A DNA stretch of 64,000 bases from Candidatus Omnitrophota bacterium (GCA_003598025.1 QZKH01000002.1:206206-270205); one strand, 5' to 3'; counted from the first letter of the stretch, positions 3,212 to 60,091 are shown. Notes: generated by a model from the letters alone, not told the origin. Program-made: numbers and translations.

Positions 3212-3239
3212 TTGCCAAAGATTTAAATTCTGATATAAT
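3212..3239 (+). promoter_or_regulatory. Sigma70-like promoter of the pur operon (TTGCCA-N16-TATAAT)
   Basis: TTGCCA at 3212-3217 and TATAAT at 3234-3239 are separated by a 16-nt spacer. A GGAGGA RBS follows at 3250-3255. Confidence 0.35.
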
Positions 3240-3260
3240 AATTGCCTGCGGAGGATGCCT

Positions 3261-4553
3261 ATGATTGAGCGTTATTGTCTGCCCCAAATGGGAAAAATAT
3301 GGCAGGAGGATTTTAAGTTCAGGACGATGCTTGCCATAGAAATATTTGCCTTAGAATACCTTGCCTCTAAAAAAGCGGTCCCGCTTGACTCTCTAAAAAG
3401 AATAAAGAAAAAAGCAAAATTTGATATTAAACAGATAAAGAAAATAGAAGAAAAAACCCAGCACGATGTCGTTGCTTTTGTCAATTGCGTCGGAAGTTAT
3501 ATCGGGAAAGACGCAAAATACCTGCATATGGGGCTTACGTCTTCAGATGTGCTTGATACTACTTTAGGGGTACAACTTAAGAGTGCTTCTGATATTATAG
3601 TCGGCGGACTTAACAGGGTGCTTTTTGTGCTTTCCAGAAAAGCCTTGAAATATAAAGATATGGTTTGCATAGGCAGGACCCACGGTATACATGCTGAACC
3701 GACGACATTCGGCCTTAAGCTGGCGCTATGGTATGACGAAACCAAGCGTAATATAGAAAGAATGCGTTCCGCAAAAGAAGCAGTATCAACCGGAAAGATA
3801 TCCGGAGCTGTGGGTACATATGCCAATATAGACCCGCAGGCAGAAGCTTATATCTGCAGGAAGCTCGGGCTCAGGCCGGCTAAGATTTCTACACAGATAA
3901 TCCAGAGGGATATTTATGCCGAGTATATGTGCACATTGGCTATAATCGGAGCTTCTTTAGAAAAATTCGCCACTGAGATAAGGCATCTTCAGCGTACGGA
4001 AGTCCTGGAAGCAGAAGAGCCTTTTGGAAAAGGCCAGAAGGGGTCTTCTGCTATGCCGCATAAGAGAAACCCTGTTATTTGTGAACGTATATGCGGTCTC
4101 AGCCGTTTATTGAGAGGTAATGCGTTAGTTGCGCTTGAGAATGTGTCATTGTGGCATGAGCGCGATATCAGCCATTCTTCGGCAGAAAGGGTTATATTTG
4201 CCGATTCTACCCTGGCGTTGGATTACATGCTCCATAAATTCATAGAAGTAATCGATGGGCTCGTTGTGCATCCTGATAATATGCTGGCGAATATGGCTAA
4301 GACCAAGGGCCTGATATTTTCTCAAAGGGTGCTTTTAGCGCTTATGGCTAAGGGTCTTGCGCGCAGCCAGGCTTATGATATAGTGCAGAGGTGCGCGATG
4401 AAGACCTGGAAGGGCCAAAAGAGTTTCAGGGATAACTTACTTCAAGACAGCCAGCTCCTGAAACATCTCAACCCCAAAGAATTAGATAAGATATTTGACT
4501 TGGATTATTACCTCCGGCATGTTGATAAGATCTTCCATAATGTCGGGCTGTAA
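3261..4553 (+). CDS. purB: Adenylosuccinate lyase
   Basis: The fumarate-lyase signature GSSAMPHKRNP is present and overall PurB similarity is clear. ATG 3261 has better RBS spacing than the listed 3255. Confidence 0.9.
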   Translation: MIERYCLPQMGKIWQEDFKFRTMLAIEIFALEYLASKKAVPLDSLKRIKKKAKFDIKQIKKIEEKTQHDVVAFVNCVGSYIGKDAKYLHMGLTSSDVLDTTLGVQLKSASDIIVGGLNRVLFVLSRKALKYKDMVCIGRTHGIHAEPTTFGLKLALWYDETKRNIERMRSAKEAVSTGKISGAVGTYANIDPQAEAYICRKLGLRPAKISTQIIQRDIYAEYMCTLAIIGASLEKFATEIRHLQRTEVLEAEEPFGKGQKGSSAMPHKRNPVICERICGLSRLLRGNALVALENVSLWHERDISHSSAERVIFADSTLALDYMLHKFIEVIDGLVVHPDNMLANMAKTKGLIFSQRVLLALMAKGLARSQAYDIVQRCAMKTWKGQKSFRDNLLQDSQLLKHLNPKELDKIFDLDYYLRHVDKIFHNVGL

Positions 4554-4747: not shown

Positions 4748-7651
4748 ATGTCTTGGAAAATTGAAATAAAAGATAAAGCCGAGGTATTTGATGCAATCGG
4801 AGAGGGTATTAAGCGGGATATCTTTGACCTGGGTATTTACGACGTTGAAGATGTAAAGTTTATACAGATATATATAATAAAGGACAGCATTACCCCTGAT
4901 GATGTAAAGAAAATATGCGAGGAAGTCCTTTTAGACAGCGTTTCACAAGAGTACTCTTTTTCAAAAACCAGCCAAATAAACAATAGTTTCGGCAATAATA
5001 CCCACGTAGTCGAAGTAGCCTATAATCCGGGAGTTATGGACCCGGTTGAAGAGTCCAGCCTTAAAGCAATCAGGGACATAGGAATATCCGCGGTAACTTC
5101 CATAAAAACAGCTAAAAAATATATCATCAAAGGCAGGCTTAATAACCATCAGCTGAAAATAATCTGTGATAAATTATTATACAATAAGCTTATACAGCAT
5201 ATAGTCCCGCGCATGGCAGAAGACAAAATCCCGGCGGAAGTAAAATATCAATTCAGATTAGTTACTGTCGGGTTGCTAAAAGCCGGTGATAAGAAATTAA
5301 TGCAGCTTAGTAAAAGCGGGCAATTGTTTCTTAATATAAATGAGATGCGCGCAATTAAGGATTACTTCAGGAAGCTTAAACGCGATCCTACGGATTGTGA
5401 GCTGGAGACCATAGCCCAGACCTGGTCAGAGCATTGCTGGCATAAAACGTTCAGGGGTAAGATAGATTATAAACAGTCAACTGTGAACGGTGCACTGTGC
5501 ACTAAAAAGATTGATAATCTCCTTAAATCAACGATAATGAAGGTCACCAAAGAGCTTAATAAGCCCTGGTGCGTATCGGTATTCAAGGATAACTCAGGTG
5601 TCATAAAGTTTGATGACGATTACAACATTTGTTTTAAAGTAGAGACCCATAACCATCCTTCAGCACTTGAGCCTTTCGGAGGGGCAAATACCGGTGTGGG
5701 CGGGGTAATCCGTGACCCGTTAGGCACCGGTATGGGCGCAAAACCTATCCTTAATACCGACGTTTTTTGTTTTGCCAGCCCGGATTATCCTTTCAGTAAA
5801 TTACCGGCAGGTACGTTGCATCCGAAAAGAGTGATGAAGGGGGTTGTTTCAGGAGTCAGGGATTATGGTAACAAAATGGGGATCCCCACTGTTAACGGCG
5901 CCATCCTTTTTCATGACAGATTTGTGGGCAATCCATTAGTTTATTGCGGCACCGTCGGAATAATGCCTAAAGACAAAGCATTTAAAAACCCGAGGAAGGG
6001 GGATTTAATCGTTGTAGTCGGCGGCAGGACGGGAAGAGACGGCATACACGGTGCGACATTCTCTTCCGGCGAGCTTACCCATGAGTCTGAAACAATATCA
6101 AGCGGGGCAGTCCAGATCGGTAATCCCATACAGGAAAAAAAGATGGTTGATACTATCCTTAAAGCAAGGGATAGGGGTTTGTATAGCGCGATAACTGATT
6201 GCGGAGCTGGCGGGCTATCCAGTGCGGTCGGGGAAATGGGCCAAGACCTGGGAGCGGTTGTATATTTGGATAAAGTCCCGCTTAAATATAGCGGCCTCTC
6301 TTATATGGAGATATGGATCTCGGAGTCGCAGGAAAGAATGGTCCTTTCGGTGCCGAAAGAGAATATAGCAGAATTGATAGATGTTTTTACTAAGGAGAAT
6401 GTGGAAGCAGCAGTTATCGGAGAGTTCCCGGGTGATGATAAATTAAGGCTTTATTATAACGATAAGAAAGTCTGTGAATTGGAAATGGGTTTTCTGCATG
6501 AAGGGCTGCCTAAAATAGAAAAGAAAGCCGTATTTAAACAGCATATTTACAGGGAACCGAAGCTTCGCTGTCCAAAGGATGTGACTAAAACTTTAAAACA
6601 GCTTCTTTCTCATTATGATATCTGTTCCAAGGAGTGGGTTATAAGGCAATATGACCATGAAGTCCAGGGGGGGTCTGTTGTTAAGCCTCTTATAGGCAAG
6701 TTTAACGACGGCCCGGCTGATGCTTCAGTAAACAGGCCTTTATTAAATTCAAACAGGGGCATTATTTTATCTAACGGGATCAATTTCAGGTTCGGCCTAA
6801 TCGACCCTTACTGGATGGCTGCTTCATGCATTGACGAGGCATTAAGGCAGATAATCGCAGTCGGCGGATCACTTGGGAGGGTCGCATTATTAGATAATTT
6901 TTGCTGGGGCAATCCTGATAAGCCTGATAGGCTTGGAGGTTTAGTGCGCGCTGCTTTAGGATGTTATGATATTGCAAAAGGTTTTGGCCTGCCTTTTATA
7001 TCGGGTAAAGACAGCCTGTATAACGAATTCACGGTCAATAAAAGATCCATCTCTATCCCGGGTACTTTACTGATTTCTGCCATTGCAGTCATGCAGGATG
7101 TATCAAAAGCCGTTTCGATGTACCTTAAGAAGCCGGGCAACCTCGTGTATATCGTAGGAGAAACTTTTAATGAGTTGGGAGGGTCACATTACTATGATAT
7201 TCTTGGTTATGTAGGCAATACCGTACCGAAGGTAGATGTTATTAAGGCAAAGAAAACATTTGTCGCTTTAAGTAAAGCTGCCTCTAGCGGCCTGGTAGAA
7301 TCTATCCATGATTGTTCTGACGGAGGCTTAGCCGTGAGTTGCGCCGAGATGTCTTTTGCTGGGAACCTTGGCATGAGAGTTTTCTTATCCGAGGCGCCGT
7401 TTAATAACAGCAAGGCAAGGCTTAGTAATGATTGTGTGCTTTTTTCCGAATCTAATTCCAGATTTATAGTAGAAGTGAGCCGCGAAAACCAAAAAGCTTT
7501 TGAAAAAACGCTTAAAGGCATTGTTTACGGCTTAATCGGATGCGTAACTAAAGAGGGTATATTGGAAGTCCATGGTTTAGACGGTAAAACATGTATCAGG
7601 GCATCTGTAGATGAGCTTAAGACGGCCTGGAAGGAGCCTTTGCAATGGTGA
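4748..7651 (+). CDS. purL: Phosphoribosylformylglycinamidine synthase, PurS-PurL fusion
   Basis: An N-terminal PurS-like segment of about 80 aa is followed by the PurL motif HNHPSALEPFGGANTGVGGVIRD and duplicated AIRS domains, for 967 aa in total. A separate purQ lies downstream. Confidence 0.9.
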   Translation: MSWKIEIKDKAEVFDAIGEGIKRDIFDLGIYDVEDVKFIQIYIIKDSITPDDVKKICEEVLLDSVSQEYSFSKTSQINNSFGNNTHVVEVAYNPGVMDPVEESSLKAIRDIGISAVTSIKTAKKYIIKGRLNNHQLKIICDKLLYNKLIQHIVPRMAEDKIPAEVKYQFRLVTVGLLKAGDKKLMQLSKSGQLFLNINEMRAIKDYFRKLKRDPTDCELETIAQTWSEHCWHKTFRGKIDYKQSTVNGALCTKKIDNLLKSTIMKVTKELNKPWCVSVFKDNSGVIKFDDDYNICFKVETHNHPSALEPFGGANTGVGGVIRDPLGTGMGAKPILNTDVFCFASPDYPFSKLPAGTLHPKRVMKGVVSGVRDYGNKMGIPTVNGAILFHDRFVGNPLVYCGTVGIMPKDKAFKNPRKGDLIVVVGGRTGRDGIHGATFSSGELTHESETISSGAVQIGNPIQEKKMVDTILKARDRGLYSAITDCGAGGLSSAVGEMGQDLGAVVYLDKVPLKYSGLSYMEIWISESQERMVLSVPKENIAELIDVFTKENVEAAVIGEFPGDDKLRLYYNDKKVCELEMGFLHEGLPKIEKKAVFKQHIYREPKLRCPKDVTKTLKQLLSHYDICSKEWVIRQYDHEVQGGSVVKPLIGKFNDGPADASVNRPLLNSNRGIILSNGINFRFGLIDPYWMAASCIDEALRQIIAVGGSLGRVALLDNFCWGNPDKPDRLGGLVRAALGCYDIAKGFGLPFISGKDSLYNEFTVNKRSISIPGTLLISAIAVMQDVSKAVSMYLKKPGNLVYIVGETFNELGGSHYYDILGYVGNTVPKVDVIKAKKTFVALSKAASSGLVESIHDCSDGGLAVSCAEMSFAGNLGMRVFLSEAPFNNSKARLSNDCVLFSESNSRFIVEVSRENQKAFEKTLKGIVYGLIGCVTKEGILEVHGLDGKTCIRASVDELKTAWKEPLQW

Positions 7652-8325
7652 AAAATACTAAGCGCAAGAAAGACGAGCTATTGGATGATTCAGATGATTT
7701 TGTAAGGCAGGATACTTGGCGGGTGTTCCGTATAATGTCGGAATTCGTCGAAGGTTTTGAAGTATTATCCAAACTGGGAGAAGCTGTTTCGATATTCGGC
7801 TCAAGCAGGACAAAACCGGATAATAAACACTACAAATTGGCCGAGGAAGTCGCCTATCTTTTGGCAAAAGAAGGTTATGCTGTTATTACCGGCAGCGGCC
7901 CCGGGCTTATGGAAGCTGCCAACAAAGGGGCAAAGAGGGCATGCGGGTGTTCTGTGGGCTTAAATATTCAGATACCCAGCGAGCAAAAAGCAAATAAATA
8001 TGTAGATACGCTTCTTGATTTTCATTATTTTTTTGTCAGAAAAGTGATGTTTGTTAAATATGCCAAAGCTTTTGTAATACTCCCCGGAGGTTACGGGACG
8101 CTGGATGAGTTCACCGAGGCCATTAATCTTATTCAGACCAAGAGGATATCCAAATTCCCCGTAGTCTTATTCGGCTCGGAATATTGGAAGGGCCTTCTGG
8201 ATTGGCTTAAAAGCACTGTTTTAGCAAACGGTAACATAAGCAAAGAGGACCTGGATATTTTTGTTGTTGTGGATAAGCCCAAAGAAGTAGTCGATGCCAT
8301 AAGGAAGTTTTATGCAAAAGCCTAA
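7645..8325 (+). CDS. LOG family protein (cytokinin riboside 5'-monophosphate phosphoribohydrolase / lysine-decarboxylase-like)
   Basis: Motifs FGSSRT, TGSGPGLMEAANKGA and PGGYGTLDE are present. It overlaps the end of purL by 7 nt and the start of purQ by 14 nt. Confidence 0.8.
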   Translation: MVKNTKRKKDELLDDSDDFVRQDTWRVFRIMSEFVEGFEVLSKLGEAVSIFGSSRTKPDNKHYKLAEEVAYLLAKEGYAVITGSGPGLMEAANKGAKRACGCSVGLNIQIPSEQKANKYVDTLLDFHYFFVRKVMFVKYAKAFVILPGGYGTLDEFTEAINLIQTKRISKFPVVLFGSEYWKGLLDWLKSTVLANGNISKEDLDIFVVVDKPKEVVDAIRKFYAKA

Positions 8326-9136
8326 AGTCTGCGTATTAAGAAGCGCAGGTACCAACTGTGATTTAGAAACCGCTGCTGCTTTTGGAAAAGCAGGCGCTGT
8401 ATGTGAATTAGTGCATATAAACGAGCTTATAGCAGGCAGCAGGAGCCTGCATAGTTTTCAGATATTGGCTATACCCGGCGGATTTACTTACGGTGATGAC
8501 CTGGGCGCAGGCAGGGTTTTTGCCAATGAGCTGAGGTTTAAACTGCGCAAGGATATAGAGAATTTTATCTCAGAAGGAAAGGTCATAATAGGCATATGCA
8601 ATGGTTTCCAGATATTAGTAAAAAGCGGGTTATTGGCAGGCGCTAAAGACTTTAAACAGCAGGCAAGCCTGATAATTAACGATAGCGCAAAATTTGAGGA
8701 TAGGTGGGTTTATTTAAAGCCGTCAGCTATCAGCCGTCAGCTATCAGCTAAATGCGTGTGGACGCGTAATTTACCTGACAAGATTTATCTGCCGGTTGCC
8801 CACGGGGAAGGGAAATTCATAACCAGAGACAAAAATGTGCTTGATAACCTTTTTAAGAGCGGGCAGGTTGTTCTGCAATATTGCGATGAAGATACGCAGT
8901 TGGCAGACTATCCTTATAATCCGAACGGTTCAATAGAGAATATCGCCGGTATATGCGATGAAACGGGAAGGATCTTCGGGCTTATGCCGCATCCGGAGCG
9001 CCATATTGATCTATTGCAGCATCCAAGGTCATGGACTGAAAATGCAGCAGGAGTAAAAGAAGGCGATGGTTTGCAGATATTCAGAAACGGTGTTGAATAT
9101 ATAATAAATGAGCTTAGAAAGGGGAAATTTGAATGA
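8312..9136 (+). CDS. purQ: Phosphoribosylformylglycinamidine synthase, glutaminase subunit
   Basis: The type-1 GATase nucleophile elbow GICNGFQ and the C-terminal motif PVAHGEGKF are present. An in-frame tandem-repeat insertion is noted separately. Confidence 0.85.
   Translation: MQKPKVCVLRSAGTNCDLETAAAFGKAGAVCELVHINELIAGSRSLHSFQILAIPGGFTYGDDLGAGRVFANELRFKLRKDIENFISEGKVIIGICNGFQILVKSGLLAGAKDFKQQASLIINDSAKFEDRWVYLKPSAISRQLSAKCVWTRNLPDKIYLPVAHGEGKFITRDKNVLDNLFKSGQVVLQYCDEDTQLADYPYNPNGSIENIAGICDETGRIFGLMPHPERHIDLLQHPRSWTENAAGVKEGDGLQIFRNGVEYIINELRKGKFE
8720..8747 (+). repeat. Exact 14-bp tandem duplication (ccgtcagctatcag x2; four cagcYNN heptamers) inside purQ coding sequence
   Basis: Seen directly. 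It encodes PSAISRQLSA between conserved PurQ blocks, and the frame is preserved downstream. Confidence 0.7.
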
Positions 9137-10527
9137 GCGGTATATTCGGAGTAATCTCCAGGGACAGCTGTAGTGATGATTTGTTTTATGGCACTGATTA
9201 TCATTCTCACCTCGGCACGCAGTTTGCGGGGCTGGCAGTTTCAACCGGGGAAATTCAACGTAAAATACATGATATAAAAGGCAGCCAGTTTAAAGCTAAA
9301 TTCTTTACAGAATATAAAAATATGCAGGGGGCTATGGGCATAGGGGTGATCAGCTCTAAAGAAGAACAGCCCATATTGGTGCATTCCAGATTCGGTGCAT
9401 TTGCCATAGTGACTAATGGATTTATTGACAATGCGGTTCAGCTAGCCGAGGATCTTTATAAGAAAGGGCAGTCCTTCAGTGAAGTAACCGACGGCTCTGT
9501 CAATACCACGGAATTAATTGCCAAATTAATAATAAGAGGAGAAAATATAATTGATGGCATAGAAAAGATGTTTAAGGCGATAAGGGGTTCCTGTTCCTTG
9601 CTTTTGTTGACTAAGGATGGGATCTATGCGGCCAGGGACCGTCTGGGATATAGCGCTTTGACTGTCGGGATAAAATCGGGCTCTTTCGCGGTCACTACAG
9701 AAACAAGCGCTTTTCATAATCTTGGATATAAAATAGACAAGAGCCTTGAGCCCGGAGAGATAATATTTTTAAACAAGCGAGGTATCACAACCAGAAAAAA
9801 GTGTTCGGATAAAAAACAAATTTGTTCATTCTTATGGATATATACCGGGTTTCCTGCTTCTTCCTATGAAGGCCACAACGTAGAGGCGGCAAGAGAAAGG
9901 TGCGGTCGCTGCCTGGCTAAGAATGATATGGTTGATGCGGATATGGTTGCCGGGATACCGGATTCAGGCACCGCGCATGCAATAGGTTATGCGATGGAAT
10001 CAGGCATACCTTTACGCAGGCCACTGGTAAAATATACCCCTGGTTATGACCGTAGCTATACTCCGCCTTCCCAGCATATGCGTGATTTGGTCGCAAGGAT
10101 GAAGCTTATTCCTATTCCCGAGATCATAAAGGGCAAGCGCATAGTTTTTTGTGATGATTCAATCGTCAGGGGCACGCAACTCAAGAATTATACTATTCAG
10201 AAACTCATTAATTGCGGAGCAAAACAGATCCATTTGAGGATCGCCTGCCCGCCGCTTATGTTCCCGTGCAAATTCAATTATTCCACCCGTCAGATAAAAG
10301 AATTAGCTGCCCGTAAGGCGATCAGAGCGCTTGAAGGCAAAGATACCAAAAATATAAAACGGTATCTTGATGAAGGATCATACGAATATAAAAGAATGGT
10401 AAAGTGGATTGCCAGGGACTTAAAGGTTGATACTTTAAGATATCTGAAACTGCAGGACATGATCCAGGCTATCGGTTTACCTGAGCAAAAAATATGCCAG
10501 TATTGCTGGACCGGCAAAGAGGGTTAA
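9133..10527 (+). CDS. Amidophosphoribosyltransferase-like paralog with Ser instead of Cys at the N-terminal nucleophile position
   Basis: The N-terminus is MSGIFGV, whereas canonical PurF has MCGI. The PRTase motif VFCDDSIVRGTQ and the Fe-S Cys ligands (CQYCWTG) are retained. The glutaminase-domain motifs have diverged (HLGTQFAGLAV instead of RGQE.AGI). Confidence 0.7.
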   Translation: MSGIFGVISRDSCSDDLFYGTDYHSHLGTQFAGLAVSTGEIQRKIHDIKGSQFKAKFFTEYKNMQGAMGIGVISSKEEQPILVHSRFGAFAIVTNGFIDNAVQLAEDLYKKGQSFSEVTDGSVNTTELIAKLIIRGENIIDGIEKMFKAIRGSCSLLLLTKDGIYAARDRLGYSALTVGIKSGSFAVTTETSAFHNLGYKIDKSLEPGEIIFLNKRGITTRKKCSDKKQICSFLWIYTGFPASSYEGHNVEAARERCGRCLAKNDMVDADMVAGIPDSGTAHAIGYAMESGIPLRRPLVKYTPGYDRSYTPPSQHMRDLVARMKLIPIPEIIKGKRIVFCDDSIVRGTQLKNYTIQKLINCGAKQIHLRIACPPLMFPCKFNYSTRQIKELAARKAIRALEGKDTKNIKRYLDEGSYEYKRMVKWIARDLKVDTLRYLKLQDMIQAIGLPEQKICQYCWTGKEG

Positions 10528-10548
10528 CTTTTTTAAGCAGAGGAAAAT

Positions 10549-11994
10549 ATGGACGAATACGGTTTATTAAACGACCATCCAAAGGAATATTGCGGTTTGT
10601 TCGGAATAACCGGACATAAGCAGGCCAGCTGGCTTACATATCTTGGTTTGTATGCGTTGCAGCACAGGGGACAGGAGGCCTGCGGGATTGTATCGAACAA
10701 CAACGGTTCCCTGCACGTACATAAAGATATGGGTTTAGTCGCTGATGTTTTCGACGGCCGTACTTTAAACAGTCTTAAGGGCGATACTGCCTGCGGCCAT
10801 GTCAGGTATTCTACCACCGGTTCAAGTGTCTTGAAAAATTCCCAGCCGTTATTAATAGACTATGCCAAAGGTACAATGTGTATCGCGCATAACGGTAACC
10901 TAGTTAATTCCCTGGAATTAAGGTCATATCTGGAAAAGCGCGGTTCTATTTTTCAGACAACAACCGATTCAGAATTAATTATTCATCTTATGGCCAAGGC
11001 AAGATGCCGTGATTTGCAAGGAAGCCTTATGTATGCGCTAAAGCGGATAAGAGGGGCGTTTTCTTTGGTTATGATGAACAGAGATTCTCTTATTGGAGTA
11101 AGGGACCCATGGGGTTTCAGGCCGCTTTGTCTGGGCAAACTAAGAAATTCCTGGTGTCTGGCTTCTGAGACCTGCGCGCTTGACCTTATCGGAGCAAAAT
11201 TCGTACGCGATGTAGAGCCGGGAGAAATCATCTTTATTTCGGATAATAAACTCAAGTCAGTAAAATTCAGCCCGCAGAAGAATAAATTCGCAATGTGTAT
11301 CTTTGAACACGTTTATTTTTCCCGTCCTGATTCAATTGTTTTTGGCGAAACGGTGCATATGGTAAGGCGTAAGCTTGGCGAACAGCTGGCCAGGGAATAT
11401 CCGGTGGATGCGGATTTTGTTGTCCCTGTTCCTGATTCCGGTTTTTCAGCCGCGATGGGTTATTCTCATGAGTCGGGTATACCTCTTGAAATGGGCATAA
11501 TCAGGAACCATTATATAGGCAGGACATTCATACAGCCTGCCCAGGATATAAGGGAATTCGGGATAAGGGTAAAATTCAATCTGCTTAAAGATGTTTTAAG
11601 AGGCAAGAAGATTGTTATTGTTGATGATTCTATTGTCCGCGGAAATACTTCGAAGATCCGCGTCAGAAACTTAAGAAGGGCAGGCGTCAAAGAAGTGCAT
11701 TTAAGGATTTCCTGCCCGCCGCACAGGCACCCTTGTTTTTATGGTATTGATTTTCACCGTTCCAGCGAACTGATCGCAAATAAATACGGCTCACTTGAAC
11801 AGATAAGGAAATATTTAGGCGTAGACAGCCTGGGTTATCTCAGCCTTGAAGGGATGCACAAATGCCTTAAGAATCCCGAAAAATATTATTGTAATGCCTG
11901 CTGGACAGGCAGGTATCCGGTTAAAGCAGAGACAGGCCATAGCAAATTTTCTCTTGAGTCACGTTGCTGCGGCCAGGGAGAGATTAAATTATGA
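10549..11994 (+). CDS. purF: Amidophosphoribosyltransferase (canonical, with short propeptide before Cys)
   Basis: Motifs EYCGLFGI, LQHRGQEACGIV, VIVDDSIVRGNTS and CNACWTG are present. Confidence 0.9.
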   Translation: MDEYGLLNDHPKEYCGLFGITGHKQASWLTYLGLYALQHRGQEACGIVSNNNGSLHVHKDMGLVADVFDGRTLNSLKGDTACGHVRYSTTGSSVLKNSQPLLIDYAKGTMCIAHNGNLVNSLELRSYLEKRGSIFQTTTDSELIIHLMAKARCRDLQGSLMYALKRIRGAFSLVMMNRDSLIGVRDPWGFRPLCLGKLRNSWCLASETCALDLIGAKFVRDVEPGEIIFISDNKLKSVKFSPQKNKFAMCIFEHVYFSRPDSIVFGETVHMVRRKLGEQLAREYPVDADFVVPVPDSGFSAAMGYSHESGIPLEMGIIRNHYIGRTFIQPAQDIREFGIRVKFNLLKDVLRGKKIVIVDDSIVRGNTSKIRVRNLRRAGVKEVHLRISCPPHRHPCFYGIDFHRSSELIANKYGSLEQIRKYLGVDSLGYLSLEGMHKCLKNPEKYYCNACWTGRYPVKAETGHSKFSLESRCCGQGEIKL

Positions 11995-13013
11995 GACGAA
12001 CAAAGAGCATAAACTATAAGTCTGCTGGAGTTGATATACACAAAGCAGAGAGTTTTAAAGAAAAGATAAAACCTTTGGCGAGGAAATCTTTTACCGGCGA
12101 AGTGATTAAGGATATCGGCGGGTTCGGTGCATTTTTCAGGTTCCCCCAAAAGGCCTACAAGAACCCGGTGCTGGTTTCTTCCTCTGACGGCGTAGGCACT
12201 AAGCTTAAGATAGCTGCGCTTGTCAATAAGCATGATACCATCGGTATAGATGCTGTGGCCATGAACGTAAATGACATACTTTGCACCGGGGCAAGGCCGT
12301 TGTTTTTTCTTGATTATTTAGCTTATAGCGACCTCAAGGAAGAGACCCTGCTGGATATAATCAAAGGGATAAATAACGGTTGCATTGAATCGGGGTGTTC
12401 TTTAATCGGAGGAGAAACTGCCCAGATGCCTGGCATGTATGATAAAGGTGAATATGATGTGGCCGGATTTTGCGTAGGGGCGATCGAAGAGGCCAATATA
12501 ATCGATGGTTCAAGAATAGAAGAAGGGGATTTGGCTTTAGGCCTGGAATCAAGCGGACTGCATTCTAACGGTTTTTCATTGGTCAGAAAGGTTTTCTCCG
12601 AGGCAGAGCTTAAAAGGATGAGTAAAGAGCTGCTTGAACCCACGCGTATTTATGTAAAACCGGTGATTGCCTTGTTGGATAAATTCGGCTATGACTGTAA
12701 GGTAATCAGGGGCATATCCCATATTACAGGCGGTGCTTTTTATAACAAGATATCACGTATCCTACCGAGAAAATTTGATTTGAGGATTGACAAAAATTCC
12801 TGGGTTGTACCGAAAATCTTCAGGCTCGTTCAAAACAAGGGCAATGTCAGCGACAGAGACATGTACTCGACATTAAATATGGGTATTGGCATGGTATTAT
12901 TTATTCCTAAAGCTGCTTTAAGCCAGGTTAAGGGCGAGTTGGAAAAATTCAGCTTGAAATCCTGGGTTATCGGGAAAGTCACCCCGGGAGCCAGGCAAGT
13001 GCATATAAATTAA
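11991..13013 (+). CDS. purM: Phosphoribosylformylglycinamidine cyclo-ligase (AIR synthase)
   Basis: The DGVGTKL motif is present within an AIRS/AIRS_C architecture, and the length is typical. Confidence 0.9.
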   Translation: MRRTKSINYKSAGVDIHKAESFKEKIKPLARKSFTGEVIKDIGGFGAFFRFPQKAYKNPVLVSSSDGVGTKLKIAALVNKHDTIGIDAVAMNVNDILCTGARPLFFLDYLAYSDLKEETLLDIIKGINNGCIESGCSLIGGETAQMPGMYDKGEYDVAGFCVGAIEEANIIDGSRIEEGDLALGLESSGLHSNGFSLVRKVFSEAELKRMSKELLEPTRIYVKPVIALLDKFGYDCKVIRGISHITGGAFYNKISRILPRKFDLRIDKNSWVVPKIFRLVQNKGNVSDRDMYSTLNMGIGMVLFIPKAALSQVKGELEKFSLKSWVIGKVTPGARQVHIN

Positions 13014-13032: not shown

Positions 13033-13905
13033 ATGGGCCCTTTGTTTACGATGACCATAGTATTCGCAGTTTTTATCTTTCTTTCCGGGATAAGGATAGT
13101 CCGTCCTACTCACCGCGGGCTGGTTGAGAGGCTGGGTAAATACAACCGTTTTGCCAACCCGGGTTTTAACTGGATAATACCGGTGATTGAGAGCCTTTAT
13201 ATGGTCAATATCACCGAGCAGATGGTTGATGCCGAGCCGCAGGAAATTATTACCAACGATAATTTAAATGCCCGTGTAGATGCACAGGTTTATTTTAAGG
13301 TCAAGCCTGATGAGGTAAGCGTAAAGAATTCCCTGTATAACGTTAATAATTATCAGTGGCAGATAGTCAATCTTGCCCGCACTACCTTAAGGAATATTAT
13401 CGGCACGCTTACGCTTAAATCCGCTAACAGCGAAAGGGGTAAGATAAACGAAGAGCTGCATAAGACCCTTTGCGAAGAGACACAGAGCTGGGGTATTGAG
13501 ATAGTGCGTACTGAGCTTAAGGAAATCGACCCTCCTAAAGATGTCCAGGAGACGATGAACAAGGTGGTAAAAGCTGAAAATGAAAAAATCGCCGCTATTG
13601 ATTATGCAACAGCCACAGAGACTGCAGCTGATGGCCAGAAGAGGGCTGAAATTAAGAAAGCCGAAGGCATCAAGCAGGCCAGGATCCTTCAGGCTGAAGG
13701 CGAGGCTGAGGCGATCAAGCTGGTCAACGAGGCAGCTGAGCATTATTTTGTCGGTAACGCGCAGGTGCTAAGGAAATTAGAGGCAGTTGAGAAGTCGCTT
13801 GAAAATAACGCAAAAATAGTAGTCCCTTCAAATACAGAACTGGTCAACGTTATCGGCGAGATGGCAGGTGTATTGCCGCTTAGAAAAGAACAAAAAGAGA
13901 AATGA
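13033..13905 (+). CDS. SPFH/band-7 (stomatin/prohibitin-like) membrane protein
   Basis: An N-terminal TM helix is followed by an SPFH core and a C-terminal Ala/Glu-rich coiled coil (AEIKKAEGIKQARILQAEGEAEAIK). Confidence 0.75.
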   Translation: MGPLFTMTIVFAVFIFLSGIRIVRPTHRGLVERLGKYNRFANPGFNWIIPVIESLYMVNITEQMVDAEPQEIITNDNLNARVDAQVYFKVKPDEVSVKNSLYNVNNYQWQIVNLARTTLRNIIGTLTLKSANSERGKINEELHKTLCEETQSWGIEIVRTELKEIDPPKDVQETMNKVVKAENEKIAAIDYATATETAADGQKRAEIKKAEGIKQARILQAEGEAEAIKLVNEAAEHYFVGNAQVLRKLEAVEKSLENNAKIVVPSNTELVNVIGEMAGVLPLRKEQKEK

Positions 13906-13965: not shown

Positions 13966-13991
13966 CCGCACCTTCGAAGGTGCGGTTTTGT
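13966..13991 (+). terminator. Rho-independent terminator (ccgcacc-ttcgaa-ggtgcgg + TTTTGTG)
   Basis: A perfect 7-bp GC-rich stem with a 6-nt loop is followed by a T-run, downstream of the SPFH gene and before purD. Confidence 0.5.
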
Positions 13992-14066: not shown

Positions 14067-15356
14067 ATGCGAATATTAGTTATAGGTTCGGGAGGCAGAG
14101 AGCACGCGCTTGTCTGGAAAATAGCGCAGTCTAAATCGGTAGATAAGATTTTCTGTGCTCCCGGTAATGCGGGGATCGCGCAACAGGCAGAGTGTATCGA
14201 TATTAAACCGGATGACATAACCGGGTTGTTGGATTTTGCCAGGAGGCAGAATGTTGACCTTACAGTAGTCGGGCCGGAAGTGCCTTTGTCGTTAGGTATA
14301 GCTGATGAGTTCAAAAAATATAAGTTAAATATTTTCGGGCCGAATAAAGCTGCTGCACAATTGGAATCAAGCAAGGTATTTTCCAAACAGATGATGGCCA
14401 GGTATCAGGTCCCGACTGCAGAGTTCAGGGTTTTTCAGGACTTAGATGAAGCAAAAAGGTTTATTTCTGTCAGGGGAGCGCCCTGCGTAATCAAGGCAGA
14501 CGGCCTTGCGCAAGGCAAGGGAGTATTTGTCGCAAAGACGGTGGAAGAAGCAAACCAGGCAGCTTCTTTAATACTCAGGGATAAAATTTTCGGTAATTCC
14601 GGTAAGAAGATTATAGTCGAAGATTGCCTGGAAGGTCCGGAAGCATCCATATTGGTATTTACTGATTCAGAATATGTTATACCCCTTGCTTCAAGCCAGG
14701 ACCATAAAAGGATATTTGATAATGACCAGGGGCCTAATACAGGGGGTATGGGCGCGTATTCTCCTGCGCCAGTGGTTGATAAGGCAATGTTCGATCTTAT
14801 AATGCAGAAAGTAATATACAAGATGGTTAAAGGCTTATTAAATGAAGGTATCGAATACCAGGGTGTTTTATATGCCGGGATAATGATTACTAAAGATGGT
14901 CCAAAGACCCTGGAGTTCAATGTCCGTTTCGGGGACCCGGAGACACAGGCGATCCTGCCAAGGTTAAAAACCGACATTGTCGAGGTTATGTTGGCTTGCG
15001 CAAAAAAACAGCTTTCAAAAGTCAAGACATTGGATTGGGATAACCGTAGTTGTGTATGCGTTGTGTGTTCCTCAAAAGGTTACCCGGGGGCTTATGATAA
15101 AGGCAAAGAGATAAAAGGCATAGAAGAAGCTGAGAAAATAGAAGGGGTGAAGGTTTTTCATGCGGGAACAAAGTTTTTGCCGTCCACAGTCCACAGTCCA
15201 CAGTCCACTTGCGTTACTGATGGAGGAAGGGTGCTGGGTGTCAGCGGCTTAGGAACCACGATTAAAGAAGCGATAAATAAAACTTATCAGGGAGTCTCAA
15301 AAATTCACTTTGATGGTATGCATTACCGTAAAGATATTGCCTCAAAGGCGCTATAA
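14067..15356 (+). CDS. purD: Phosphoribosylamine-glycine ligase
   Basis: The N-terminus MRILVIGSGGREHAL matches GARS, and the ATP-grasp core is recognisable. An in-frame heptamer-repeat insertion near the C-terminus is noted separately. Confidence 0.9.
   Translation: MRILVIGSGGREHALVWKIAQSKSVDKIFCAPGNAGIAQQAECIDIKPDDITGLLDFARRQNVDLTVVGPEVPLSLGIADEFKKYKLNIFGPNKAAAQLESSKVFSKQMMARYQVPTAEFRVFQDLDEAKRFISVRGAPCVIKADGLAQGKGVFVAKTVEEANQAASLILRDKIFGNSGKKIIVEDCLEGPEASILVFTDSEYVIPLASSQDHKRIFDNDQGPNTGGMGAYSPAPVVDKAMFDLIMQKVIYKMVKGLLNEGIEYQGVLYAGIMITKDGPKTLEFNVRFGDPETQAILPRLKTDIVEVMLACAKKQLSKVKTLDWDNRSCVCVVCSSKGYPGAYDKGKEIKGIEEAEKIEGVKVFHAGTKFLPSTVHSPQSTCVTDGGRVLGVSGLGTTIKEAINKTYQGVSKIHFDGMHYRKDIASKAL
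15182..15209 (+). repeat. Four tandem heptamers (gtccaca x3 + gtccact) in-frame inside purD
   Basis: Seen directly. It encodes STVHSPQST within the usually compact PurD C-terminal loop. The unit is one mismatch from the intergenic GTTCACA heptamer family. Confidence 0.7.
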
Positions 15357-15371
15357 CAGAGGAGGTATATT

Positions 15372-15854
15372 ATGGCTAAAATCAGTATTATAATGGGAAG
15401 CCAGTCAGATTTAGAGACTGTTCAGGAAACAGTAAATATTTTAAAGGAATTCAAGGCCTCTTTTGAGATAAAAGTATTGTCAGCCCATAGGACCCCGCGT
15501 GAACTTGCTGCTTACGTAGAGAGCGCGCAAAAAAGAGGAGTAAAAGTTTTTATCGCTGCTGCAGGAGGGGCTGCGGCCCTGGCAGGTGTGATCGCTGCCC
15601 ATACGATTTTACCGGTGATAGGCATACCCATAGAGACAAGCAGTCTAAAAGGCATGGATTCTTTGCTTTCTACCGTGCAGATGCCTGCGGGGGTGCCGGT
15701 TGCATCAATGGCTATAGGAAAGGCAGGTGCGCGTAATGCCGGCTTGTTTGCTTTGGAAATCGTTGCTTTGGAGGATAAGAATACCAGGGCAAGATTAGTT
15801 GCATATAAGAAGGAAATGAGGGATAAGATAAGGAACATAAAGATTAAGGTATGA
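15372..15854 (+). CDS. purE: N5-carboxyaminoimidazole ribonucleotide mutase
   Basis: The motif IMGSQSDL is present and the central loop is Ala/Gly-rich (AAGGAAALAGVIAAHT), at about 160 aa. Confidence 0.9.
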   Translation: MAKISIIMGSQSDLETVQETVNILKEFKASFEIKVLSAHRTPRELAAYVESAQKRGVKVFIAAAGGAAALAGVIAAHTILPVIGIPIETSSLKGMDSLLSTVQMPAGVPVASMAIGKAGARNAGLFALEIVALEDKNTRARLVAYKKEMRDKIRNIKIKV

Positions 15855-57892: not shown

Positions 57893-57953
57893 AATATCAA
57901 GAAGAGGTTAGAGGGGCCTGGTCCTTAAAATTAGTTCCTATAAGAAATGGGCT

Positions 57954-58271
57954 TTGGAGGAAATTATGGATAATAAAAAGATATATAATAATGACTTGAT
58001 AGTGTTTTCGATTTTGGGGAGCTTATGCCTTTTGCCGTCTTTATTAATGCTATACTATTTTTTTGTTTCAGAATCCAGCCAACCGCCGTATCTATTAAGA
58101 ATGCTTTTTGAGATTATGCTTTCATCAAAAACCTATGCCCCTATGTGGTCAGAGGTTGATAAAGATCTTTTACTATACCGAGCTATTATTTGGATGGCTT
58201 TAGGTATCGGATTGATAGGTTTTGGAATTTATAAATATAAAAAGGAATCGGTTATTAAGACTAGTTTATAG
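57954..58271 (+). CDS. Small AT-rich hypothetical membrane protein (2 TM)
   Basis: A 105-aa ORF lies between two forward heptamer arrays. Its stop codon is supplied by the next repeat. Confidence 0.4.
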   Translation: MEEIMDNKKIYNNDLIVFSILGSLCLLPSLLMLYYFFVSESSQPPYLLRMLFEIMLSSKTYAPMWSEVDKDLLLYRAIIWMALGIGLIGFGIYKYKKESVIKTSL

Positions 58272-58383
58272 TTGATGGTTCATAGATCATAGAAATAGAT
58301 AAAGTAGGTAGTCACAAAGACACACGACACAAGGACACAAAAATTAGTTCACGGTTCACAGTACACGGAGCACAGTTAATGCA
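58263..58383. repeat. Left terminal inverted repeat of cassette (heptamer units + about 75-nt core aaagtaggtagtcacaaagacacacgacacaaggacacaaaaa)
   Basis: By-eye alignment with the reverse complement of 60092..60248 shows the about 75-nt core differing at only 3 positions. The flanks are more diverged. Confidence 0.75.
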
Positions 58384-58423
58384 CTAGATTCGTTTGAGAA
58401 CTGTTCAGTTGGAGGAATTTAAC

Positions 58424-59104
58424 ATGTATACGATTATAAAAAAAATACTAGCGAAGATAGTTAATAATAAAGATCTAATTGTAACTATTGTAGCTGTTGT
58501 TGCACTTGTAGTTTCCGTTAGGGGATGTTGCGTATCTACGGATGCTTATAGACTATCTAAAGAATCTAAAAATATAGCAAAGGATGCTTTAGATACGGGA
58601 AAATATCAGTTTATCCAAATTAATCGCCCTTATGTATTGATCTCTCCAAAGAAATTCAATGATGGCTCATTTTGGAAAATTCAGCAAAAAAGCAATCACG
58701 TCGAAATTATAGTTAAATACGAAATAAAGAACGTGGGTAACGTTGCGGCAAAAAATATTGAATTACCTGATAATTTAATAATTGGACAAGAGACAAAACT
58801 CAAGAGAGATGCACCTGTTTCTTATAAGAAAATGAGCGAGGTGACATTAGGACCCGGAGATTTTTATGAACTTGTGTGTAGTTTTGTGTTAGATTATTCA
58901 GACGAAGAGGCAGCCAAAAATAATTATGAGTATATTGTTTCGGATTCAAGTGAAGGCCTAACTTTGTTGTTAGCGGTAACTTATACAAACGAGATAGATG
59001 GATTTATGGAATATAGGACAATAGTTGAAAACAGAATTCATAATGATAATGCTTTAATTATCAAATCTGAGATGCTTAATCTCAATACTAAAGCTAAGAA
59101 TTGA
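58424..59104 (+). CDS. Cassette gene A: single-pass membrane protein with unknown extracytoplasmic domain
   Basis: A GGAGG RBS lies 9 nt before the ATG at 58424, and the listed ORF starts at 58394. The TM helix is LIVTIVAVVALVVSV. The region is visibly AT-rich. Confidence 0.5.
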   Translation: MYTIIKKILAKIVNNKDLIVTIVAVVALVVSVRGCCVSTDAYRLSKESKNIAKDALDTGKYQFIQINRPYVLISPKKFNDGSFWKIQQKSNHVEIIVKYEIKNVGNVAAKNIELPDNLIIGQETKLKRDAPVSYKKMSEVTLGPGDFYELVCSFVLDYSDEEAAKNNYEYIVSDSSEGLTLLLAVTYTNEIDGFMEYRTIVENRIHNDNALIIKSEMLNLNTKAKN

Positions 59105-59182
59105 ATTGCAAATAATATAGTTAGAGAGTCGTCTTTAAATAGAAAACACTGTTTTGTATTTAAGAAGCTCAAAAGAAGATCT

Positions 59183-59992
59183 ATGAAAAATTTAGACTTG
59201 GAGAAAAATGCAATAAAAGGGATTCGAGAAGCGATAGCTTGGCATACTATAATAGTGGATGTTTCCCTCGCCAATACTTCTCTTGGGTGGGGGACGGGAA
59301 CATTATTAGAGATAAATAGCAGAAAGTTTATATTAACATGCGCACATGTAGTTAAAAAAGAATATAAAAATAAAGATTTGAGGTTTATTTATCGCTCAGG
59401 AAATTCTTTAAGAGATGCTGATAAAGATATTATTAAAGAAGCTCCGCTTAATGATCTAGTTGAAGCAGATGATAAAGCGTATTCTTTAGAAATTCCAACA
59501 ATTAATAGGTTTTATTCTGATTTTACTGATGATTTAGTCATGCTGGAATTAGAGCCAACAGCAAAAACAATAAGTAATTTTGTTTTTTTTGATGCCTCTA
59601 TAGGGAGAATCATATCTCCTGAAATTGGCATGGCGACTTATATGCTTGGTTTTTCTGTTGAACTAACAAGAGAAATTAATAAATATGGTGTTGGAAATTT
59701 CCATTATTTCTTGGGATCAAAAATCATAGATTTTGCTGCTTCTGACCGAAGCATTGATTATAATAGGCAATTTTTTATCGATTATAGTATTGATGATCAC
59801 TCAGTTGACCTGCATGGTTTGAGCGGCTGTGGAGTATGGACGCGCAAGCCATCTGGAAAGAATAATTTATGGTCTCCAAATCTTTATCTTGTTGGAGTCC
59901 AGGATGCTTTTATCACAGTAACTAGAAAATTTCAGCCTATCCGAGCGACTAGGGGAGAAAGAATAACAGATTTAATTAACAAAACAATATAA
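59183..59992 (+). CDS. Cassette gene B: trypsin-fold (chymotrypsin-like) serine protease candidate
   Basis: The catalytic-triad contexts appear in canonical order: His in LTCAHVV, Asp in DDLVMLELE (compare trypsin DIMLIKL) and Ser in HGLSGCGVW (compare GDSGGP). The region is AT-rich. Confidence 0.5.
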   Translation: MKNLDLEKNAIKGIREAIAWHTIIVDVSLANTSLGWGTGTLLEINSRKFILTCAHVVKKEYKNKDLRFIYRSGNSLRDADKDIIKEAPLNDLVEADDKAYSLEIPTINRFYSDFTDDLVMLELEPTAKTISNFVFFDASIGRIISPEIGMATYMLGFSVELTREINKYGVGNFHYFLGSKIIDFAASDRSIDYNRQFFIDYSIDDHSVDLHGLSGCGVWTRKPSGKNNLWSPNLYLVGVQDAFITVTRKFQPIRATRGERITDLINKTI

Positions 59993-60091
59993 ATAATAAA
60001 CACTTTATGATATGTGTGTAAAGTGGATTTTGGTTTTCTCAATAAGCTATCAGCTCCAGGCTATATTTATCGTGATATACATATAGTTTTT

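What the first reader, a model, noticed from the sequence alone, without database searches (positions are those of the whole stretch)
9133..11994. Tandem PurF paralogs, the first with Ser replacing the Ntn cysteine nucleophile
Two full-length amidophosphoribosyltransferase homologs sit back to back inside the pur operon. The downstream copy is canonical (propeptide then CGLFGI, and RGQEACGIV). The upstream copy begins MSGIFGV and has diverged glutaminase-domain motifs, yet it keeps the PRPP-binding loop and all Fe-S ligands. A class-II amidotransferase without its Cys1 cannot make the thioester intermediate. The copy may be an ammonia-dependent PRA synthase, a regulatory subunit, or it may have a different acceptor specificity.
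Basis: partly seen in the sequence, partly recalled or inferred. Interest (0 to 1): 0.5.

Follow-up and report, generated by a model that had tools for sequence, protein, structure and literature searches.

The report
Cysteine-less PurF paralog beside PurF
Next to the normal first enzyme of purine synthesis, this Omnitrophota genome encodes a conserved copy that has lost its glutamine-splitting machinery but kept its sugar-phosphate chemistry, and related operons suggest that it makes the same product directly from ammonia.

Summary
ORF A (9133-10527, MSGIFGV...) and ORF B (10549-11994, propeptide then CGLFGI) are 31%-identical PurF homologs in a pur operon. B is a canonical PurF. A fails the PurF model cut-off. 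It has Ser for Cys1 and Leu for Arg26, and it lacks eight residues of the glutamine loop (Arg73/Tyr74). It keeps the PRPP loop, the flexible-loop residues and all four Fe-S cysteines, and its model has a full PurF fold.

A is not an error or a pseudogene. All 86 close relatives have Ser, encoded by AGC or AGT. Its family (signature GTDYHSHLGT) occurs in at least 600 species across many anaerobic phyla. Ser is not family-wide, because Gly replaces it in many lineages, so it is unlikely to be a nucleophile.

In Omnitrophota the same operon slot holds purQ-A-B, purQ-A, A alone or purQ-B. B never occurs without purQ. Wherever purQ is missing, the PurS adaptor domain of PurL is missing too. A-only operons therefore carry no glutaminase.

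Best reading (about 0.6): A is an ammonia-dependent phosphoribosylamine synthase, and this genome keeps both nitrogen routes. No enzyme assay exists. The closest precedent is the untested archaeal PurF'.

The parts
3255..4553 (+). purB (adenylosuccinate lyase), first pur gene of the cluster
   Evidence: TIGR00928 520.9 bits. A promoter-like site lies at 3212-3239.
4748..7651 (+). PurS-PurS-PurL fusion (FGAM synthetase subunit with two N-terminal PurS-like repeats, aa 4-73 and 88-150)
   Evidence: TIGR01736 625 bits, plus PurS models on aa 4-73 and 88-150. In related operons the PurS part is present only where purQ is present.
7645..8325 (+). LOG/TIGR00730-family gene, conserved in every variant of this operon
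   Evidence: TIGR00730 149 bits. Present in all loci.
8312..9136 (+). purQ (glutaminase subunit of FGAM synthetase); its stop overlaps the start of A
   Evidence: TIGR01737 208 bits. ATGA overlap.
9133..10527 (+). ORF A: Cys-less PurF paralog (GTDYHSHLGT family), predicted ammonia-dependent PRPP aminotransferase
   Evidence: AF2 model pLDDT 88.7; TM 0.84/0.86 to B. subtilis PurF 1ao0.
9136..9138 (+). Codon 2 of A, AGC = Ser, at the position of the Ntn Cys nucleophile
   Evidence: Relatives use AGC (95), AGT (28) or GGN (40), never TGY.
9196..9210 (+). Family-specific motif D22-Y23-H24-S25-H26, replacing the canonical LQHRG region (Arg26 to Leu27)
   Evidence: At least 98% conserved in 120 orthologs. 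Y23 and H26 are invariant across phyla.
9346..9357 (+). Site of the eight-residue deletion of the glutamine loop (canonical HVRY...; Arg73/Tyr74 absent)
   Evidence: Pairwise and HMM alignments. The columns are gaps in all non-canonical clades.
9823..9825 (+). Cys231, first [4Fe-4S] ligand (B. subtilis Cys236 equivalent)
10030..10104 (+). PRTase flexible loop (K300...R307-S308...Q314...R317...K324)
   Evidence: Residues invariant across the family.
10153..10179 (+). PRPP-binding loop D341-D342-S343-I-V-R346-G-T348-Q349
10267..10269 (+). Cys379, second Fe-S ligand
10495..10506 (+). Cys455-x-x-Cys458, third and fourth Fe-S ligands
10549..11994 (+). ORF B: canonical glutamine-PRPP amidotransferase PurF with a 14-residue propeptide; Cys15 (10591-10593, TGC) becomes Cys1
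   Evidence: TIGR01134 523.9 bits. C1, R26, R73, Y74, N101, G102, D127, four Cys and DD are all present..
11991..13013 (+). purM; its start overlaps the stop of B
   Evidence: TIGR00878 407 bits.
13033..13905 (+). SPFH/Band-7 gene inside the operon
   Evidence: HflK-like, 107 bits, below cut-off. Band_7 in relatives.
13966..13985 (+). Terminator-like hairpin after the SPFH gene
   Evidence: Eight pairs, six of them GC, followed by a T run. This is a consensus match only.
14067..15356 (+). purD (uses the PRA made by PurF)
   Evidence: TIGR00877 532 bits.
15372..15854 (+). purE
   Evidence: TIGR01162 190 bits.

Best explanation
ORF A is a catalytically competent, glutaminase-dead paralog of PurF. 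It most likely makes 5-phosphoribosylamine (PRA) from PRPP and free ammonia.

Shown by computation:
- A has the complete two-domain PurF fold.
- A has an intact type-I phosphoribosyltransferase site and four [4Fe-4S] cysteine ligands.
- A lacks the Cys1 nucleophile, Arg26 and the glutamine loop (Arg73/Tyr74).
- Among relatives, A can be the only PurF-like gene in the pur operon.

Inferred:
- PRPP-Mg binds as in PurF and the flexible loop closes.
- NH3 from solution, rather than from glutamine hydrolysis, attacks C1. It may enter through the space opened by the deleted glutamine loop.
- PRA then passes to PurD.
- The former glutaminase domain is retained as a scaffold for the active site and the oligomer. 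Its residue 2 only needs to be small (Ser, Gly, Thr or Ala, all permissive for removal of Met1).
- In this genome, A and the canonical PurF (B) are co-transcribed and give two nitrogen routes. B uses glutamine when ammonium is scarce. A uses ammonia when it is plentiful, which saves the ATP that glutamine synthesis costs.
For: (1) The catalytic PRTase residues and Fe-S ligands are invariant across phyla, while the glutaminase residues are not.

(2) The AF2 model has pLDDT 88.7, and its best PDB match is B. subtilis PurF at TM 0.84-0.86.

(3) The family is under long-term purifying selection. There are at least 120 orthologs at 70-74% identity, 1104 representatives at E<1e-30, and at least 600 species genomes.

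(4) The operon census in close relatives counted purQ-A-B 18 times, purQ-A 19 times, A alone 34 times and B without purQ 0 times (Fisher p 6e-7, not corrected for phylogeny).

(5) Seven sampled B orthologs all lie in the same slot, and four of them have no A. A and B are therefore alternative occupants of one slot.

(6) Every purQ-containing operon with an informative purL 5' end has the PurS domain fused to PurL (26). Every purQ-less one lacks it (24). There are no exceptions, and a PurS profile finds nothing within about 9 kb either side of A in the purQ-less loci. A-only operons have therefore lost the glutaminase apparatus of both amidotransfer steps but keep purL, purM, purD, purE and purB.

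(7) These states are interspersed on the tree of A proteins, with at least 13 changes for purQ and at least 11 for B.

(8) Precedent: E. coli PurF with Cys1 changed to Ser or Ala loses glutamine-dependent activity but still uses ammonia (Mei and Zalkin 1989, as cited in PMC3261824). The same paper proposed an ammonia-dependent role for the Cys-less archaeal PurF'.
Against: - There are no biochemical or genetic data for any member of this family.
- The A-only operons come from metagenome contigs, of which only about 9-10 kb on each side of A was read. A canonical purF, purQ or purS elsewhere in those genomes cannot be excluded. The sampling of B contexts was also biased towards orthologs of the in-operon B.
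- The N-terminal domain is more conserved than a mere scaffold would need. Its family-specific motifs (DYHSH, QFKxKF, GIGVIS) may mean that it binds something.
- Within Omnitrophota, Ser2 and the Asn95-Gly96 pair are invariant, so a residual Ntn-type activity cannot be ruled out for this subfamily.
- Ammonia access to the PRPP site was not modelled.
Confidence: 0.6

Rival explanations
1. A catalyses a different PRPP-dependent reaction. It might use another nitrogen or other nucleophile, or supply PRA or a related amine to a separate pathway such as thiamine pyrimidine synthesis. The remodelled N-domain would bind the alternative substrate.
For: The N-domain has family-specific invariant motifs (Y23, H26, F53, F57, N124, E127). 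A and B are kept together in about a quarter of the operons. Outside Omnitrophota and Planctomycetota the gene is mostly not next to pur genes. Second purF genes linked to thiC exist in Clostridium (PMC6505512), though their type was not checked.
Against: In 53 of 71 informative related operons, A is the only PurF-like gene in the PurF slot of an otherwise complete pur operon. No thiC or other conserved non-purine neighbour was found in 80 species-level loci. All the PRTase and flexible-loop residues used for PRA synthesis are retained.
Confidence: 0.13
2. A is a non-catalytic or regulatory partner that forms mixed tetramers with canonical PurF (B). It would tune feedback inhibition or stability.
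For: A and B are adjacent and co-transcribed here. They are also adjacent in other orders in other phyla: B-A in L009 and L058, and B-purM-A in L006, L011 and L012. PurF enzymes are homotetramers (established knowledge). The canonical SRPDS segment is changed to GFPAS in A.
Against: A occurs without B in most related operons, and B occurs without A. About 70 of 80 species-level loci have no B within 6 kb. A pseudoenzyme would not be expected to keep every PRTase catalytic residue across phyla.
Confidence: 0.08
3. In the Ser-type subfamily, the N-terminal Ser (after Met removal) acts as an Ntn nucleophile on an amide donor other than glutamine. The ammonia released would be channelled to PRPP.
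For: Ser, Thr and Cys all serve as Ntn nucleophiles in the superfamily (established knowledge). Ser2 is found in 119 of the 120 orthologs listed; the remaining one (P0040) has a long N-terminal extension, so its start was not visible. The Asn95-Gly96 oxyanion-hole pair is invariant within Omnitrophota.
Against: The wider family freely replaces Ser with Gly (40 of 165 loci), Thr or Ala, and does not conserve Asn95. The substrate-binding residues Arg73 and Asp127 are lost. E. coli PurF C1S has no detectable amidotransferase activity (PMC3261824).
Confidence: 0.07
4. A is a sequencing artefact or a decaying pseudogene.
For: Only that one base separates AGC from TGC.
Against: Ser (AGC or AGT) is present in all 86 close relatives, and no TGY codon occurs in 165 loci. 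The ORF is intact and translationally coupled. The family is conserved across phyla.
Confidence: 0.01

Closest known systems
Canonical [4Fe-4S] glutamine-PRPP amidotransferase PurF (B. subtilis type; TIGR01134; PDB 1ao0/1gph)
   Same: Same two-domain fold (TM 0.84-0.86), PRPP loop, flexible loop, four Fe-S cysteines and pur-operon position.
   Different: No Cys1, no Arg26 and no Arg73/Tyr74 loop (eight-residue deletion). The Asp127 position is not conserved. There is a five-residue insertion near residue 120 and an insertion of about 25 residues at 395-422. A scores 212 bits against a cut-off of 350.
PurF' of Crenarchaeota (Brown, Hoopes, White, Sarisky 2011, PMC3261824)
   Same: It is a PurF-like protein without the N-terminal Cys, encoded near purF and other pur genes. 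An ammonia-dependent PRPP aminotransferase role was proposed but not tested.
   Different: PurF' has Ala or Val at the position and is archaeal. Whether it belongs to the GTDYHSHLGT family could not be tested, because no sequences were available. In that survey every Crenarchaeon had PurF' together with purF, whereas here A often stands alone in the operon.
E. coli PurF Cys1-to-Ser/Ala mutants (Mei and Zalkin 1989, as cited in PMC3261824)
   Same: The nucleophile is replaced, glutamine-dependent activity is lost and ammonia-dependent PRA synthesis is retained.
   Different: These are laboratory point mutants of a Fe-S-free enzyme with an otherwise intact glutamine site. A is a natural, ancient lineage with a remodelled site.
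Mlab_0150 of Methanocorpusculum labreanum (PMC3261824)
   Same: [quoted passage not shown]
   Different: It was described as a recent duplicate of that organism's own purF, not as a member of an old, separate clade. Its sequence was not compared here.
Small PurL acting without PurQ/PurS, and other ammonia- versus glutamine-dependent enzyme pairs (AsnA/AsnB, the two NAD synthetase types)
   Same: The logic matches: the synthase part can use free ammonia, and the glutaminase part is an optional module (own knowledge of the B. subtilis PurLQS work; the PurS adaptor role is described in PMC3261824).
   Different: This is an analogy only.

Membership tests
PurF, glutamine-PRPP amidotransferase (EC 2.4.2.14; TIGR01134 equivalog) | N-terminal Cys nucleophile exposed by Met or propeptide removal | tested here: not met
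   A starts Met-Ser (AGC) with a stop codon directly upstream. B meets the feature (Cys15 after the propeptide).
PurF, glutamine-PRPP amidotransferase (EC 2.4.2.14; TIGR01134 equivalog) | Glutamine-site residues: Arg26, Arg73/Tyr74 loop, Asn101-Gly102, Asp127 (E. coli numbering) | tested here: not met
   Arg26 is Leu, the Arg73/Tyr74 loop is deleted, and the Asp127 position is variable. Only Asn-Gly is kept in this copy.
PurF, glutamine-PRPP amidotransferase (EC 2.4.2.14; TIGR01134 equivalog) | Score at or above the curated cut-off of the equivalog model | tested here: not met
   A scores 212.5 bits against a cut-off of 350. B scores 523.9.
PurF, glutamine-PRPP amidotransferase (EC 2.4.2.14; TIGR01134 equivalog) | Type-I PRTase domain with PRPP loop and flexible loop | tested here: met
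   DDSIVRGTQ, PDSG, K300, R307, R317 and K324 are invariant.
PurF, glutamine-PRPP amidotransferase (EC 2.4.2.14; TIGR01134 equivalog) | Four Cys ligands of the [4Fe-4S] cluster (B. subtilis class) | tested here: met
   C231, C379, C455 and C458 align with the B. subtilis ligands and are conserved.
PurF, glutamine-PRPP amidotransferase (EC 2.4.2.14; TIGR01134 equivalog) | Two-domain Ntn plus PRTase fold | tested here: met
   AF2 pLDDT 88.7. Foldseek top hit 1ao0_A, TM 0.84/0.86.
PurF, glutamine-PRPP amidotransferase (EC 2.4.2.14; TIGR01134 equivalog) | Makes PRA from PRPP | not testable with these tools
   Supported only by operon context.
Archaeal PurF' (Brown et al. 2011) | PurF-like, no N-terminal Cys, encoded with pur genes | tested here: met
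Archaeal PurF' (Brown et al. 2011) | Same orthologous clade as the crenarchaeal proteins | not tested
   No crenarchaeal sequences could be retrieved. The archaeal members found were from Altiarchaeota, Thermoplasmatota, Methanobacteriota and Asgard MAGs.
Ser-type Ntn hydrolase | N-terminal Ser conserved as nucleophile across the family | tested here: not met
   Ser in 123, Gly in 40, and Thr or Val in 2 of 165 loci. Ala and Asp also occur among the representatives.
Pseudoenzyme / non-catalytic PurF partner | Loss of catalytic residues in all active sites and obligate co-occurrence with the active paralog | tested here: not met
   The PRTase site is intact. A occurs without B in 53 of 71 informative operons.

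The most novel reading that the evidence does not exclude
Many Omnitrophota run both amidotransfer steps of de novo purine synthesis, PRA formation and FGAM formation, directly on ammonia. They would use A plus a PurL stripped of PurS and PurQ. More generally, the GTDYHSHLGT family would be the working, glutamine-independent PurF of many anaerobes, including abundant gut Bacteroidales and Oscillospiraceae, all currently annotated simply as amidophosphoribosyltransferase. A more speculative extension is that the vestigial glutaminase pocket, with its invariant His-x-His, has become an ammonium capture and deprotonation site.
Probability: 0.35. Interest if true: 0.7.

Novelty: new variant of a known kind. 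Interest (0 to 1): 0.55.

Why it matters
If A is an ammonia-dependent PRA synthase, three things follow.

- The committed step of purine synthesis has a widespread, natural, glutamine-independent form. Databases currently merge it with PurF.
- Metabolic reconstructions of anaerobes would need to separate the two forms. This includes major gut lineages and candidate phyla. The two forms imply different nitrogen and ATP economies and possibly different feedback control.
- The four operon states in Omnitrophota offer a natural series for studying how glutaminase modules are gained and lost. They also give a directly testable prediction for the long-standing PurF' question raised for archaea in 2011.

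Tried and rejected
- **Alternative upstream start with a Cys:** rejected, because an in-frame TGA lies at 9130-9132.
- **Sequencing error or pseudogene:** rejected.
- **Ser as a conserved substitute nucleophile:** rejected for the family as a whole.
- **Conserved neighbours outside Omnitrophota and Planctomycetota:** clustering of the flanking ORFs of 80 species-level loci gave only scattered housekeeping genes. carB was upstream in a few loci, along with ispG, proS and an aminotransferase. No thiC was found.
- **Stand-alone purS in purQ-less loci:** a PurS profile HMM found nothing at E up to 10, while the positive controls hit strongly.
- **Literature:** nine searches found no paper that characterises a bacterial Cys-less PurF (one search was rejected as malformed). 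Only the archaeal PurF' discussion and a thiC-purF operon report are relevant.
- **Search with the gut MGGFFG member:** it added taxonomy only (Oscillospiraceae).
- **Cluster look-up of the other Cys-less clades:** it gave almost no names (one Patescibacteria member), so their relation to PurF' stays open.
- **Rfam:** no riboswitch was found in the operon; a single tRNA, near position 903, was the only match in the window.


Full report
**What is in the window**

Two intact ORFs lie head to tail on the + strand. A is at 9133-10527 (464 aa, MSGIFGV...). B is at 10549-11994 (481 aa, with a 14-residue leader and then CGLFGI...QHRGQEACGIV). They align over their full length at 31% identity, E 1e-64.

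B passes the curated PurF equivalog model (TIGR01134, 523.9 bits against a cut-off of 350). A does not (212.5 bits).

The gene order is purB, a PurS-PurS-PurL fusion, a LOG/TIGR00730 gene, purQ, A, B, purM, an SPFH gene, purD and purE. The start of A overlaps the purQ stop (ATGA). An in-frame TGA sits immediately upstream, so there is no hidden N-terminal extension. A and B are 21 nt apart, B overlaps purM, and the first good terminator-like hairpin follows the SPFH gene. The organism is a Candidatus Omnitrophota bacterium, judged by the names on identical database entries.

**Anatomy of A**

Against B. subtilis PurF (1ao0) and against B, the differences are as follows:
- Cys1 is Ser (AGC).
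- Arg26 is Leu, so HRGQE becomes HLGTQ.
- An eight-residue deletion removes the glutamine loop that carries Arg73 and Tyr74.
- A five-residue insertion lies next to the Asp127 position, which is not conserved.

The Asn-Gly oxyanion pair is present in this copy (N95-G96).

The phosphoribosyltransferase half is intact. This includes PDSG, the flexible-loop residues K300, R307, R317 and K324, and the PRPP loop D341-Q349. All four [4Fe-4S] cysteines (C231, C379, C455, C458) are also present.

An AlphaFold model built on 44 sequences has pLDDT 88.7 and pTM 0.86. Its best PDB matches are B. subtilis PurF at TM 0.84/0.86 and then the Arabidopsis and E. coli enzymes. B has every canonical residue.

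**Not an error, not a pseudogene**

The 120 best database relatives of A are 70-74% identical. At least 119 of them begin MSG; the remaining one has a long N-terminal extension and its start could not be read.

Conservation in the N-domain is as high as elsewhere in the protein. It has family-specific invariant motifs: MSG.F, GTDYHSH.G, QFK.KF, GIGV.S..EQP, SFSE and GSC.

At the DNA level, 86 close relatives use AGC (67) or AGT (19). Among 165 loci the codon is AGY (123), GGN (40), ACT (1) or GTT (1), and never TGY.

**The family is large, and Ser is not its hallmark**

A search of 1.84 billion cluster representatives gave 1104 hits at E<1e-30. Those closest to A share the signature [FY]YGTDYHSHLGT, but they carry Ser, Gly (MGGFFG), Thr, Ala or Asp after the initiator Met.

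The best 80 come from many phyla: Omnitrophota, Planctomycetota, Desulfobacterota and related groups, Elusimicrobiota, Clostridia, Bacteroidales, Verrucomicrobiota, Gemmatimonadota, Acidobacteriota and Spirochaetes. Archaeal members include Altiarchaeota, Thermoplasmatota and Asgard lineages.

Gut Muribaculaceae and Oscillospiraceae carry the Gly form in very large numbers, and one 90% cluster has 3295 members. All are annotated simply as amidophosphoribosyltransferase.

Across phyla the invariant residues are the PRTase residues, the Fe-S cysteines and a few N-domain positions (G3, G6, Y23, H26, F53, F57, N100). The canonical glutaminase residues are not invariant.

A distance tree places A in a monophyletic clade. 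That clade sits inside a wider set of non-canonical PurF-like clades that all share the glutamine-loop deletion.

The residues found at position 2 are almost all small and compatible with removal of Met1 (established knowledge). This fits a packing constraint on a buried N-terminus better than it fits a nucleophile.

**Operon comparison, the main new evidence**

Outside Omnitrophota and Planctomycetota the gene mostly stands among unrelated housekeeping genes. In a few lineages it is next to B in other orders, either B-A or B-purM-A.

In 80 metagenome loci of close relatives the whole operon is syntenic, and A is the constant element. The counts are purQ-A-B 18, purQ-A 19, A alone 34 and B without purQ 0 (Fisher p 6e-7, not corrected for phylogeny).

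I then sampled seven B orthologs on long contigs. All lie in the same slot after purQ. Three have A and four do not. The slot between purL-LOG and purM therefore holds QAB, QA, A or QB.

A second correlation is perfect:
- In all 26 operons with purQ and an informative purL 5' end, PurL carries the N-terminal PurS repeats.
- In all 24 without purQ, PurL starts at the linker and core.
- A PurS profile HMM finds nothing in the roughly 9 kb read on each side of A in those 24 loci.

PurS is the adaptor that lets PurQ work with small PurL (PMC3261824). Its deletion therefore argues that purQ was really lost rather than relocated.

On a tree of the A proteins these states are interspersed, with at least 13 changes of purQ state and at least 11 of B state. 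The NJ tree at about 70% identity is only a rough guide.

**Interpretation**

A-only operons keep purB, purL, purM, purD and purE but carry no glutaminase for either amidotransfer step. The simplest reading is that A supplies PRA from PRPP and ammonia, and that PurL likewise uses ammonia.

This agrees with the classical result that E. coli PurF C1S and C1A mutants lose glutamine-dependent activity but keep ammonia-dependent activity. It also agrees with the untested proposal made for the Cys-less archaeal PurF' (PMC3261824).

The window organism has the full set (PurS-PurL, PurQ, A and B). It would then be able to use either nitrogen donor. The family's restriction to anaerobic lineages fits both the retained oxygen-labile Fe-S cluster and ammonium-rich habitats, although this last point is inference.

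I put this explanation at about 0.6. The catalytic steps, ammonia entry through the gap left by the deleted loop, and the division of labour with B are all inferred, not shown.

**Rivals**

- **A different PRPP-dependent reaction, or a dedicated supply for another pathway (0.13).** The strongly conserved, remodelled N-domain keeps this alive. So does the report of thiC-linked second purF genes in Clostridium, whose type was not checked. No such neighbour was found here.
- **A regulatory partner of B (0.08).** This is disfavoured because A and B each occur alone and the catalytic site of A is intact.
- **A Ser-Ntn hydrolase on another amide (0.07).** This is possible only for the Ser subfamily, where Ser2 and Asn95-Gly96 are invariant. 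Gly-type relatives and the loss of the substrate-binding residues argue against it.
- **Artefact or pseudogene (0.01).** Refuted.

**Limits**

- There is no enzyme or genetic evidence for any member of the family.
- Only about 9-10 kb on each side of A was read in the related contigs, so genes elsewhere in those genomes remain possible.
- The B-context sample is small and biased towards in-operon orthologs.
- Orthology with crenarchaeal PurF' and with Mlab_0150 could not be tested.

**Novelty and score**

Nine literature searches found no description of this bacterial family or of glutaminase-free pur operons. Cys-less PurF homologs and the ammonia hypothesis were already published for archaea. 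I therefore rate this a new variant of a known kind, with interest 0.55. It is not startling to a specialist. It is widespread and mis-annotated, and the operon series now backs it with a sharp, testable prediction.

Noticed in passing
window 7645-8325; also L081-L171: A LOG/TIGR00730-family gene (PpnN/cytokinin-riboside-phosphate hydrolase relatives) sits between purL and purQ/A in every variant of this Omnitrophota pur operon. This suggests a nucleotide-salvage or regulatory role tied to purine synthesis.
   Followed up: partly
window 4748-7651; L001, L082, L101 and others: PurL carries two fused PurS-like repeats (aa 4-73 and 88-150). In relatives, exactly this N-terminal part is absent whenever purQ is absent (26 versus 24 loci, no exceptions).
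   Followed up: yes
window 13033-13905 and 13966-13985: An SPFH/Band-7 membrane-scaffold gene is embedded in the pur operon here and in many relatives. The strongest terminator-like hairpin of the region follows it.
   Followed up: no
proteins P0233, P0205, P0163, P0191, P0246, P0182, P0249: A clade of PurF-like proteins keeps Cys1 and Arg26 but shares the glutamine-loop deletion (no Arg73/Tyr74). Further Cys-less clades with an FYxQHLGEE-type motif also exist, and one of their members is from Patescibacteria. Their functions are unknown.
   Followed up: partly
165 loci, codon 2 of A-type genes: Ser is always encoded by AGY and never by TCN. Gly is encoded by GGN. Both are one step from the Cys codon TGY and from each other, which is consistent with repeated single-base switches at this codon.
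   Followed up: yes
L004, L005 and a few other species-level loci: carB (the large subunit of carbamoyl-phosphate synthetase) lies next to the A-type gene in about six loci from different lineages, most often directly upstream. This may be chance among housekeeping genes.
   Followed up: no
window about 57950-60000: A low-GC island (33% against about 43-44%) holds three ORFs of 105, 236 and 269 aa, the last resembling a trypsin-like protease. It is inserted among LPS heptosyltransferase and heptose-synthesis-like genes.
   Followed up: no
literature, PMC6505512: A thiC-purF operon, carrying a second purF, is reported in Clostridium ragsdalei and confers thiamine prototrophy. Whether that purF is Cys-less was not checked.
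   Followed up: no
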